From assembly GCF_009914755.1 (NCBI RefSeq), contig NC_060930.1: 64,000 nt of DNA. One strand, 5' to 3'. How positions within the stretch are numbered: position 1 is the first letter of the stretch; each line of letters opens with the position of its first letter. This DNA comes from the human T2T-CHM13v2.0 reference genome, Homo sapiens. Positions 444 through 1,260 of this stretch are shown here, piece by piece. The notes below the pieces were generated by a model. The model was not told where the DNA came from, made no database searches, and worked only from the letters and a program-made list of their open reading frames with translations. The position numbers and the translations under genes are program-made.

Positions 444-781
444 CCAACTAAAAATACTAAACACACACTATCACCTACCTGCCTCACCAAAATTTATTAA
501 CATGAAAAATCACAATAAACCCTGAGAGCCAAAATGAACGAAAATTTATTCACTTCATTCATTACCCCCACAATTCTAGGCCTACCTGCTGCAGTACCAA
601 TCATCCTATTTCCCCCCTTACTGGTTCCAATTTCCAAATACCTCATCAACAACCGACTAATCACTACCCAACAATGACTAATCCAACTCATCTTAAAACA
701 AATAATAATGATACATAACATTAAGGGACGAACCTGGTCCCTTATACTAATCTCCCTAATTATTTTTATTGCCGCAACTAA
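444..781 (+). pseudogene. NUMT segment 1: 3' part of mt-ATP8 and 5' part of mt-ATP6
   Basis: ATG at 534 opens [82 protein letters not shown] in the vertebrate mitochondrial code. The ATP8 stop TAG at 577-579 gives the 46-nt ATP8/ATP6 overlap seen in human mtDNA. Confidence 0.97.
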
Positions 782-888
782 TTGTGTTCAGTTGATGCAA
801 AGTAGGGTTTTGCAGTCCTTAGTTGTTGCAGAAATTAAGTATTATTAACTTACTAAGGGCTTTGAAGGTTCTCGGTCTATGTTTAACC
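782..888 (-). pseudogene. NUMT segment 2: inverted mt tRNA-Trp (nearly complete) and part of tRNA-Ala
   Basis: Reverse complement ggttaaacatagaccgagaaccttcaaagcccttagtaag...tacttaatttctgcaacaactaaggactgcaaaaccctactttgcatcaactgaacacaa matches the start of the mtDNA WANCY cluster. The TCA anticodon lies in 'ccttcaaag'. Confidence 0.93.
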
Positions 889-1035
889 CTCATTTACATA
901 AACATTACACTAGCATTTACTATCTCACTTTTGGGAATACTAATCTACTGCTCACACCTAATATCCTCCCTGCTATGCCTAGAAGGGATAATGCTATCAC
1001 TATTCATCATAACTACCCTCACAACTCTTAACACC
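887..1035 (+). pseudogene. NUMT segment 3: 5' half of mt-ND4L
   Basis: Translates to [49 protein letters not shown] in the standard code (ATA = Met in mitochondria). This is the ND4L N-terminus with the SLLCLEG motif. Confidence 0.96.
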
Positions 1036-1260
1036 AATTGACATCATGGCTCAGACTATGCCCATGTATCCGAACGGTTCTTTTTTTCCAGAGTAATATG
1101 TTACGATGTGGGAAATTATTCTGAAGCCTGGTAGGATTAGGATATAGACTTCGGGGTGACCAAAGAATCAAAATAGGTGTTGGTACAGGATAGGGTCTCC
1201 CCCTCCAGCTGGGTCAAAGAAGGTGCTATTAAGGTTACGGTCTGTTAATAATATGGTAAT
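1034..1260 (-). pseudogene. NUMT segment 4: inverted internal mt-COX1 fragment
   Basis: Reverse complement encodes [46 protein letters not shown](x)[29 protein letters not shown], including the GHPEVY CuB motif. One GGA>AGA change fits CpG decay. Confidence 0.97.

What the first reader, a model, noticed from the sequence alone, without database searches (positions are those of the whole stretch)
444..1260. Four-piece scrambled NUMT with alternating orientations (+/-/+/-)
Seen: 817 bp containing ATP8/ATP6 (444-781, +), tRNA-Ala/Trp (782-888, inverted), ND4L (887-1035, +) and COX1 (1034-1260, inverted), with no nuclear spacer. Known: mtDNA order is Trp-Ala, COX1, ATP8/6, ND4L, and these pieces lie about 1 to several kb apart. 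Inference: no single deletion or inversion yields this arrangement. Four ~100-340-bp fragments were probably ligated into one double-strand break in one event, a miniature chromothripsis-like capture of shattered mtDNA. Catalogues might list it as four small hits and miss the structure.
Basis: partly seen in the sequence, partly recalled or inferred. Interest (0 to 1): 0.85.

Follow-up and report, generated by a model that had tools for sequence, protein, structure and literature searches.

The report
Four-piece mosaic mitochondrial insert in L1
An old, dead 816-base insert of mitochondrial DNA on human chromosome 6 is made of four separate mitochondrial pieces stitched together in alternating directions inside a LINE-1 repeat, which is a tidy but ordinary example of a known class of "complex" mitochondrial inserts.

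Summary
Window 444-1259 is 816 bp of mitochondrial DNA in four abutting pieces: ATP8/ATP6 (444-782, +), tRNA-Trp/tRNA-Ala (782-887, -), ND4L (887-1034, +) and COX1 (1034-1261, -). On a collinear 10-kb NUMT on chr17 the same pieces lie 872, 1691 and 1700 bp apart, in the order 2, 4, 1, 3.

The insert sits in an antisense L1 ORF2. Ten of ten paralogous L1 copies show that only 6 bp of L1 are missing. The five junctions have 0-3 nt of microhomology and no filler. There is no target-site duplication and no poly-A.

All four pieces fall in the same age class of human NUMTs. A model with one set of relative branch lengths for all four is not rejected (LRT p=0.33), though the test has low power.

The best reading is that one double-strand break was repaired by end joining that captured four mtDNA fragments, tens of millions of years ago. 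The insert has no function.

Such "complex numts" are described in print, with 96 of 592 human numts counted as complex. The COX1 piece is already catalogued as HSA_NumtS_246 and was PCR-sequenced. Catalogues do split the locus. Interest is low.

The parts
1..443 (-). Left flank: LINE-1 ORF2 sequence, antisense to the window. The last L1 base before the insert is 443.
   Evidence: More than 2300 candidate L1 matches in the genome, of which 40 were scored at 93-95% identity. Ten of 10 fetched L1 copies align up to window 443, which equals copy position 445.
444..782 (+). Piece 1: mtDNA ATP8 (codons 25-68) overlapping ATP6 (codons 1-83). This is about rCRS 8437-8775; the numbering is recalled, not taken from a call. 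Both frames are open under code 2.
   Evidence: Ungapped 338-339-nt alignments to NUMTs on chr17 (84.6%) and chr10 (90.3%).
782..887 (-). Piece 2: tRNA-Trp lacking its first ~10 nt, the intergenic spacer, and about 41 nt of tRNA-Ala, inverted. This is about rCRS 5521-5626 (recalled numbering).
   Evidence: 90.6% identity to L001 2756-2651, where ARAGORN calls Trp at 2641-2710 and Ala at c2716-2786. 24 of 24 candidate genomic hits are NUMTs that cover this tRNA stretch, several of them about 1 kb from a COX1 hit in the same locus.
887..1034 (+). Piece 3: ND4L from the second base of codon 2 to about codon 51. This is about rCRS 10474-10621 (recalled numbering).
   Evidence: 86.5% identity to L001 7586-7733, directly after the tRNA at the Arg position.
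1034..1261 (-). Piece 4: COX1 codons 206-281, inverted, with an in-frame AGA at codon 252. It corresponds to J01415.2 about 6518-6745. Bases 1260-1261 (TG) are shared with L1.
   Evidence: A published alignment of hg18 and a sequenced amplicon to J01415.2 6513-6747 (PMC3228558 supplement). I counted 36 mismatches in 226 positions by eye.
1260..1860 (-). Right flank: the same L1 ORF2 resumes 6 bp further along (TGTATG is missing). The L1 continues to about 2247 according to the hub's repeat mask.
   Evidence: ORF2p residues 413-434. Nine of 10 L1 copies resume at window 1260, which equals copy position 452, and 1 of 10 at 1259/451. Sequences shown. Alignment extends to 1860.

Best explanation
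This is a complex (mosaic) NUMT made in one repair event. A double-strand break arose in an L1PA-type ORF2 in the germline of an ancestral anthropoid or catarrhine primate. End joining sealed it by ligating four short double-stranded mtDNA fragments (about 339, 105, 147 and 226 bp) to one another and to the two chromosome ends. The fragments came from positions spread over about 5.1 kb of the mitochondrial genome and joined in random order and orientation. Six base pairs of chromosome were lost.

The product was dead on arrival. It reads as protein only under the mitochondrial code, and it lies in an intron of a predicted lncRNA inside a repeat. It has since drifted neutrally.

Shown here: the identity, order and orientation of the pieces, the junction anatomy, the single 6-bp target gap, and the same relative age class for all pieces. 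Inferred: the single event, the NHEJ pathway, and an age of tens of millions of years.
For: (1) Four non-collinear pieces abut with no spacer.

(2) The empty site was reconstructed from paralogous L1 copies. Ten of 10 show that the two flanks are contiguous except for 6 bp. That stretch reads TGTATG in 7 of 10 copies and a one- or two-base variant in the other 3. All four pieces therefore occupy one break.

(3) Junction microhomology is 0 nt at L1|piece 1, 1 nt at 1|2, 1-2 nt at 2|3, 1-3 nt at 3|4, and 2 nt at piece 4|L1. The last junction also has an imperfect 6-of-7 match. There is no filler at any of the 5 junctions, no target-site duplication and no poly-A. This lies within the classical NHEJ spectrum reported for 152 primate numt fusion points, where 46% of the 90 insertions carried small deletions (PMC2567098, passages).

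(4) Relative age. In separate ML trees each piece falls in the same clade as the chr17 NUMT and, for the three pieces it covers (1, 3, 4), the chr5:100.6M NUMT, apart from the older NUMTs. Support is 100/100 for piece 1, 100/99 for piece 3, 100/99 for piece 4, and 94/85 for piece 2 with chr17.
- The AU test rejects none of the 3 placements in pieces 1, 3 or 4; the lowest p is 0.058.
- A partitioned model with one set of relative branch lengths is not rejected against unlinked branches (2dlnL=13.6, df 12, p=0.33). AIC and BIC prefer the linked model.
- The ratio d(W,chr5)/d(chr17,chr5) is 0.92, 0.79 and 0.92 for pieces 1, 3 and 4.

(5) It is not an assembly artefact. Window 1010-1458, which spans junctions 3|4 and 4|L1, is identical to hg18 and to a sequenced PCR amplicon.

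(6) The arrangement is unique. None of the 39 other scored genomic matches to the 817-bp stretch crosses a junction by more than 2 nt. Forty of 114 candidates were scored.
Against: - No orthologous primate locus could be examined. A longer collinear ancestor that was later rearranged is therefore not excluded directly.
- The age-homogeneity tests have low power, because the pieces are 106-339 bp. Piece 4 prefers a more basal placement than pieces 1 and 3. This difference is not significant.
- One-nucleotide microhomology cannot be told from chance (PMC2567098). By my arithmetic, 4 of 5 junctions with at least 1 nt has p of about 0.12 under random joining. The junctions therefore do not discriminate NHEJ from other low-homology joining.
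- Nothing shows that the four fragments came from one mtDNA molecule.
- Junctions L1|1, 1|2 and 2|3 were checked only in T2T-CHM13 plus the RefSeq annotation layout, not by an independent read-level source.
Confidence: 0.8

Rival explanations
1. A single fragment was inserted from an mtDNA molecule that was already rearranged, or from a concatemer ligated outside the chromosome. A related version is copying by a template-switching polymerase (MMBIR or Pol-theta style) that hopped between mtDNA fragments. This is still one event, but the scrambling preceded capture or replaced ligation at the break.
For: The strict strand alternation and the 1-3 nt overlaps at the three internal junctions are compatible with template switching. 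Recombination driven by linear mtDNA fragments exists in mammalian mitochondria (PMC11014290, abstract in search listing only).
Against: The microhomologies are at or near chance level, mostly 1 nt. Alternation has a 1-in-8 prior. There are no templated duplications or filler. Nothing in the sequence distinguishes pre-ligation from ligation at the break.
Confidence: 0.1
2. A longer collinear NUMT of about 5.1 kb (tRNA-Trp to ND4L) was inserted once. Later nuclear deletions and inversions cut it down to four pieces.
For: Long collinear NUMTs that cover all four regions exist, for example chr17 L001. PMC5570036 notes that 'complex' status alone does not say when the discontinuity arose.
Against: This would need at least three deletions and at least two inversions or transpositions, all with clean 0-3-nt junctions. 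It would have to leave the order 1+,2-,3+,4- from 2,4,1,3 and remove 84% of the insert without touching the L1 flanks. No repeat or spacer lies between the pieces.
Confidence: 0.06
3. Two to four independent NUMT insertions hit the same spot at different times.
For: The piece 4 tree placement is slightly more basal than that of pieces 1 and 3.
Against: Each later insert would have to land exactly at an end of the earlier one with no nuclear base in between, and with only one 6-bp target loss overall. The age tests show no significant heterogeneity.
Confidence: 0.03
4. The arrangement is an assembly artefact or a chimera.
For: None found.
Against: T2T-CHM13, hg18 and a sequenced PCR amplicon are identical over window 1010-1458. 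RefSeq maps the three named pseudogenes in the same layout (hub table).
Confidence: 0.01

Closest known systems
Complex (concatenated or mosaic) numts as defined by Hazkani-Covo & Martin 2017 (PMC5570036) and Portugez et al. 2018 (PMC6215612)
   Same: [quoted passage not shown] Adjacent hits have similar identity, so they are read as one insertion. For human, Table 3 gives 592 numts, 96 of them complex and 82 with a spacer of at least 10 bp. By my subtraction, only about 14 abut directly as this one does.
   Different: Most human complex numts are interrupted by later repeat insertions. This one has four pieces with zero spacer. I did not see this locus named in the passages I read. Their supplementary tables were not seen.
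[quoted passage not shown]
   Same: Blunt or short-microhomology fusion points, a small chromosomal deletion or none, and no target duplication. Here the chromosome-mt junctions have 0 and 2 nt of microhomology and a 6-bp deletion.
   Different: That study analysed lineage-specific, mostly single-fragment numts with outgroup empty sites. Here the empty site is inferred from paralogous L1 copies, and there are three additional mt-mt junctions.
RHNumtS.2 entry HSA_NumtS_246, and HGNC pseudogenes MTATP6P25, MTND4LP19 and MTCO1P56
   Same: The same DNA. The hg18 chr6:92493725-92494173 amplicon equals window 1010-1458. It is aligned to J01415.2 6513-6747.
   Different: These catalogues treat the pieces as separate items. 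The RHNumtS merge rule requires the same orientation and under 2 kb on both genomes. The tRNA piece has no RefSeq pseudogene row (hub table). The full RHNumtS.2 table (S1.XLS) could not be read.
Concatenated NUMTs in present-day human genomes (Wei et al. 2022, PMC9630118)
   Same: [quoted passage not shown]
   Different: Those are polymorphic or rare recent events, often large or tandem 'mega-NUMTs'. This one is old, fixed in the reference assemblies seen, and built of very short fragments.
Chromothripsis
   Same: Random order and orientation of fragments rejoined by end joining.
   Different: The defining features cannot be shown for four pieces of a multi-copy 16.5-kb genome. Those features are many breakpoints from one chromosome or region and oscillating copy number (recalled definition). 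The resemblance is only an analogy.

Membership tests
NUMT (nuclear mitochondrial DNA segment) | Nuclear sequence homologous to mitochondrial genes | tested here: met
   PDB phmmer hits to ATP6, ATP8, ND4L and COX1 with E from 1e-14 to 1e-40. The tRNA piece was placed on a collinear NUMT with ARAGORN-called Trp and Ala.
NUMT (nuclear mitochondrial DNA segment) | Flanked on both sides by bona fide nuclear DNA | tested here: met
   L1 ORF2 lies on both sides.
NUMT (nuclear mitochondrial DNA segment) | Non-functional in the nucleus: frames are open only under the mitochondrial code | tested here: met
   The frames need TGA=W and ATA=M ('odd' steps). There is one AGA stop in COX1. Expression was not tested.
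Complex / mosaic numt formed at insertion | At least two fragments that are non-collinear with mtDNA within one insertion | tested here: met
   The order is 1,2,3,4 in the window but 2,4,1,3 on collinear L001. Orientations are +,-,+,-.
Complex / mosaic numt formed at insertion | Fragments abut without nuclear spacer or intervening repeat | tested here: met
   The alignments tile 444-1261 with 1-3-nt overlaps.
Complex / mosaic numt formed at insertion | Fragments have the same age (similar identity to mtDNA or the same tree position) | tested here: inconclusive
   All pieces fall in the same clade. The AU test rejects no placement. The linked-branch model is not rejected, p=0.33. Power is low and no mitogenomes were available. 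Identity to modern mtDNA is known only for piece 4, at about 84%.
Complex / mosaic numt formed at insertion | An outgroup species shows one empty site or the identical structure | not testable with these tools
   No primate genomes are held. The substitute was 10 of 10 paralogous L1 copies showing a single 6-bp gap.
Classical NHEJ capture of filler DNA | Junctions with 0 to a few nt of microhomology, a small deletion or none, no TSD, no poly-A | tested here: met
   Microhomology is 0, 1, 1-2, 1-3 and 2 nt. The deletion is 6 bp. There is no filler.
Classical NHEJ capture of filler DNA | Dependence on Ku and DNA ligase IV | not testable with these tools
   This is an ancient event, so the pathway is inferred only.
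Chromothripsis-like shattering | Fragments derive from one shattered molecule in one catastrophic episode | not testable with these tools
   mtDNA is multi-copy, and the four pieces do not overlap, so a single-molecule origin can be neither shown nor excluded.

The most novel reading that the evidence does not exclude
The insert is one fossil of a single germline episode of mtDNA fragmentation that seeded several chromosomes at once. Short NUMTs of nearly the same vintage exist elsewhere:
- chr8:20.8M, 216 bp, 96.4% identical to the last 110 nt of piece 1;
- chr3:99.5M, 148 bp, 93.9% identical to piece 4;
- chr10:100.9M, 90% identical;
- chr2:50.6M, 89% identical;
- chr2:155.7M, 91% identical.

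On this reading they would be sister captures from the same burst. The fragment ends would then record how mtDNA was cut.
Probability: 0.04. Interest if true: 0.5.

Novelty: new member of a known kind. Interest (0 to 1): 0.2.

Why it matters
This is a clean, spacer-free example of multi-fragment capture of mtDNA at one chromosomal break, with all five junctions readable. It is useful as a teaching case.

It is also a caution for NUMT catalogues that merge hits only when they are collinear. Such catalogues count this single event as three or four, and that inflates insertion counts and rate estimates.

It raises no new mechanism. The element has no sign of function. Both the class and this DNA are already in the literature and in annotation.

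Tried and rejected
- Direct tRNA calling on the window failed. ARAGORN in default, -mt and -mtmam modes found 0 genes, and only spurious calls appeared at lowered thresholds. Rfam gave 0 matches at E<=1. The cause is that both tRNAs are truncated. The problem was solved through the collinear chr17 NUMT.
- I first read COX1 as frameshifted. Searches show an in-frame AGA instead.
- I looked for other L1 copies inside the window to rebuild the empty site. Only the flanks themselves matched, so genome copies were used instead.
- I asked whether the chr10 NUMT, the best hit to piece 1, shares its boundaries and so a common origin. It does not. It extends beyond piece 1 on both sides, to 518 bp. The chr2 NUMT that matches piece 4 is 729 bp.
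- The held assembly has 24 nuclear contigs and no chrM. No NUMT with over 90% identity to the chr17 proxy was returned. The trees therefore contain no mitogenome of any species. Their direction towards present-day mtDNA was set only from NUMTs whose translations are near-identical to human proteins.
- I looked for further mt pieces elsewhere in the 64-kb window. There are none for the mt regions covered by my proxy loci. The other hits are shared nuclear repeats. rRNA, ND5 to the D-loop, and similar regions were not covered.
- Literature on the gene symbols gave 1 paper, a transcriptome study that mentions MTATP6P25. The T2T NUMT catalogue supplement (PMC10671835) was stored cut and did not reach the coordinate table. 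The PMC3314570 supplement had no entry for NumtS_245-247.
- The search of earlier findings was not open. Paper reading closed. As a result, the great-ape T2T NUMT paper (PMC13629686), the pangenome NUMT map (PMC13179385), Tsuji 2012 and Dayama 2014 were seen only as search listings. Their tables may already describe or date this locus.

Full report
**What is there.**

Under the vertebrate mitochondrial code, the stretch 433-1326 contains open frames that match solved mitochondrial proteins:
- ATP8 residues 25-67.
- ATP6 residues 1-83.
- ND4L from codon 2 to about codon 51.
- On the minus strand, COX1 residues 206-251 and 253-281.

The two COX1 frames are in the same phase and are separated by one AGA codon at Gly252. 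The published alignment to J01415.2 shows GGA changed to AGA with no gap. This is therefore an in-frame stop, not a frameshift.

The 106-nt stretch between ATP6 and ND4L gives no tRNA call and no Rfam match, because both tRNAs are cut short.

**A collinear reference.**

The held assembly is the nuclear T2T genome without chrM: 24 contigs, 3,117,275,501 bases. I therefore used a 10-kb collinear NUMT on chr17 (L001) as a stand-in for mtDNA.

ARAGORN -mtmam finds the standard order on L001: Leu, Ile, Gln, Met, Trp, Ala, Asn, Cys, Ser, Asp, Lys, Gly.

The window pieces map to L001 as follows:

| Piece | L001 position | Strand | Identity |
|---|---|---|---|
| 1 | 5549-5886 | + | 84.6% |
| 2 | 2756-2651 | - | 90.6% |
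| 3 | 7586-7733 | + | 86.5% |
| 4 | 3858-3628 | - | 85.4% |

Piece 2 lies inside the called tRNA-Trp (2641-2710) and tRNA-Ala (c2716-2786).

The mitochondrial order is thus 2, 4, 1, 3, with gaps of 872, 1691 and 1700 bp. The window order is 1+, 2-, 3+, 4-.

**The target site.**

- The right flank translates to L1 ORF2p residues 413-434.
- Ten L1 copies were fetched from the genome. In 10 of 10 they align to the left flank up to window 443.
- Nine of 10 resume on the right flank at window 1260, and 1 of 10 at 1259. This leaves six L1 bases unaccounted for.
- Those six bases read TGTATG in 7 of 10 copies.

The whole 816-bp mosaic therefore sits in one break, with a 6-bp chromosomal loss. There is no target-site duplication and no poly-A.

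**The junctions.**

I projected several reference NUMTs across each junction.

| Junction | Shared bases |
|---|---|
| L1 / piece 1 | 0 nt |
| 1 / 2 | 1 nt (T782) |
| 2 / 3 | 1-2 nt (C887, C888) |
| 3 / 4 | 1-3 nt (1033-1035) |
| piece 4 / L1 | 2 nt (TG), with an imperfect 6-of-7 match beyond |

The ranges depend on which reference represents the lost source sequence.

No junction has filler bases. This fits the classical NHEJ spectrum described for primate numts. In that study single-base microhomology was not distinguishable from chance, and 46% of insertions carried small deletions (PMC2567098, passages). By my arithmetic, 4 of 5 junctions with at least 1 nt is not significant (p about 0.12). 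The alternating orientation has a 1-in-8 prior.

**One event or several?**

No mitogenomes could be fetched, so I used other human NUMTs as time-stamped fossils of the mitochondrial lineage. There were 52 NUMT loci, and 13, 23, 16 and 21 rows were kept at 80% coverage or more for pieces 1-4.

Tree placement:
- Each piece falls in one clade with the chr17 NUMT and, for the three pieces it covers (1, 3, 4), the chr5:100.6M NUMT.
- That clade is separated from an older group of NUMTs.
- Support is 100/100 for piece 1, 100/99 for piece 3, 100/99 for piece 4, and 94/85 for piece 2 with chr17.

Direction of the ladder:
- The translations of chr2:87.8M and the chr5 NUMTs are almost identical to present-day human ATP6, ATP8 and ND4L (one search compared).
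- That side of the clade therefore points to the present.
- The window pieces branch near the base of the clade.

Formal tests:
- AU tests of the three possible placements relative to chr17 and chr5 reject none in pieces 1, 3 or 4. The lowest p is 0.058. Piece 4 prefers the basal placement, while pieces 1 and 3 prefer a position with chr5.
- A partitioned model with one shared set of relative branch lengths is not rejected against fully unlinked branches (2dlnL 13.6, df 12, p 0.33). It is preferred by AIC and BIC.
- Rate-normalised distances are similar: d(W,chr5)/d(chr17,chr5) is 0.92, 0.79 and 0.92.

These tests have little power on 106-339 bp, but they give no sign of different ages.

Serial insertion would also need each later insert to land exactly at the end of an earlier one. 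Later rearrangement of a 5.1-kb collinear insert would need several deletions and inversions, all with clean junctions and with the flanks untouched.

**Age.**

- Piece 4 differs from J01415.2 at 36 of 226 positions, 32 of them transitions and 4 transversions. I counted these by eye on the published alignment. This is about 84% identity.
- At the protein level the window keeps 71 of 83 (ATP6), 36 of 43 (ATP8) and 44 of 49 (ND4L) human residues.
- The host L1 differs by about 7-10% from its closest fetched copies.
- Two short NUMTs of like vintage differ from the window by 4 of 110 and 9 of 148 bases.
- Combining these with primate substitution rates that I recall rather than computed, I infer an age of roughly 25-40 million years.

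This estimate is an inference, and the weakest part of the report.

**Not an artefact, and already catalogued.**

The supplement of Simone et al. 2011 (PMC3228558) holds an alignment of hg18 chr6:92493725-92494173(-), a sequenced amplicon named HSA_NumtS_246_1, and J01415.2 6513-6747. The hg18 and amplicon rows are identical to the reverse complement of window 1010-1458 (compared by eye). That stretch spans the ND4L|COX1 and COX1|L1 junctions.

Their merging rule requires the same orientation and under 2 kb on both genomes, so this mosaic is split in that catalogue. RefSeq likewise lists three pseudogenes and nothing for the tRNA piece (hub table).

In the T2T genome the arrangement is unique. 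None of the other 39 scored matches crosses a junction.

**Comparison with what is known.**

- 'Complex numts' are defined in print as insertions not continuous with organelle DNA. Precedents cited include three concatenated events among 30 yeast numts and three chloroplast fragments at one site.
- For human, 96 of 592 numts are counted as complex, and 82 of those have spacers of at least 10 bp (PMC5570036, passages).
- Their first merging step joins abutting hits regardless of orientation, so this locus would count there as one complex numt.
- Present-day human genomes also carry concatenated NUMTs with mt-mt breakpoints (PMC9630118, passages).

The finding is therefore a neat member of a known kind. 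'Chromothripsis-like' is only an analogy.

**Limits.**

- No primate orthologues and no mitogenomes were available.
- Paper reading closed, and the search of earlier findings was never open.
- Several recent NUMT atlases (PMC13629686, PMC13179385, PMC3467031, PMC4227756) were seen only as listings. They may already describe or date this locus.
- rCRS numbers for pieces 1-3 are derived from recalled gene starts.

Noticed in passing
L001 (G000:C17:23212501-23222500): The collinear NUMT of about 10 kb near the chr17 centromere has unusually long end branches (0.05-0.11) in all four trees. It also has many private amino-acid changes in ATP6 and ATP8. Its best match elsewhere in the genome is only 82% identical. 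This is odd for a slowly decaying nuclear copy. It may reflect heavy decay or a side lineage of mtDNA.
   Followed up: no
G000:C4:49322576-49324894 and copies on C14:2.9M, C22:9.8M, C1:127.8M, C15:4.79M, C13:9.43M, C24:11.35M, C20:30.2M, C9:76.9M: This is a two-piece inverted NUMT. Proxy positions 3905-4812 (-) lie about 25 bp from positions 149-1496 (+). It is present in at least nine pericentromeric or acrocentric places at about 75% identity. It is another complex NUMT, amplified by segmental duplication.
   Followed up: no
L006 (chr8:20.8M), L005 (chr3:99.5M), L002 (chr10:100.9M), L003 (chr2:50.6M), L042 (chr2:155.7M): These short independent NUMTs are very close in sequence to single pieces of the window insert, at 96.4%, 93.9%, 90.3%, 89.5% and 90.6% identity. 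This suggests several insertions in the same epoch. Their boundaries differ from those of the window pieces.
   Followed up: partly
G000:C23:124784424-124785530: The chrX NUMT holds two same-strand mt pieces that are about 3.3 kb apart in mtDNA but only about 283 bp apart on the chromosome. This could be a deletion or another multi-fragment capture.
   Followed up: no
whole assembly G000: No NUMT with over 90% identity to the chr17 proxy was returned. From memory I expected a near-modern insert of about 5.8 kb on chr1. I did not probe this.
   Followed up: no
window 887: Piece 3 starts four bases into ND4L, right after the tRNA-Arg boundary, which is an RNA-processing site. With eight fragment ends, the chance that at least one lies this close to some gene boundary is about 16% (my estimate). 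I read it as coincidence rather than a sign of a cDNA origin.
   Followed up: partly
window 62708-62919 and L009 2007-2216: A nuclear repeat in the window is 90.6% identical to the repeat that abuts the chr2:131.8M NUMT. It is a shared interspersed repeat and is not mitochondrial.
   Followed up: no
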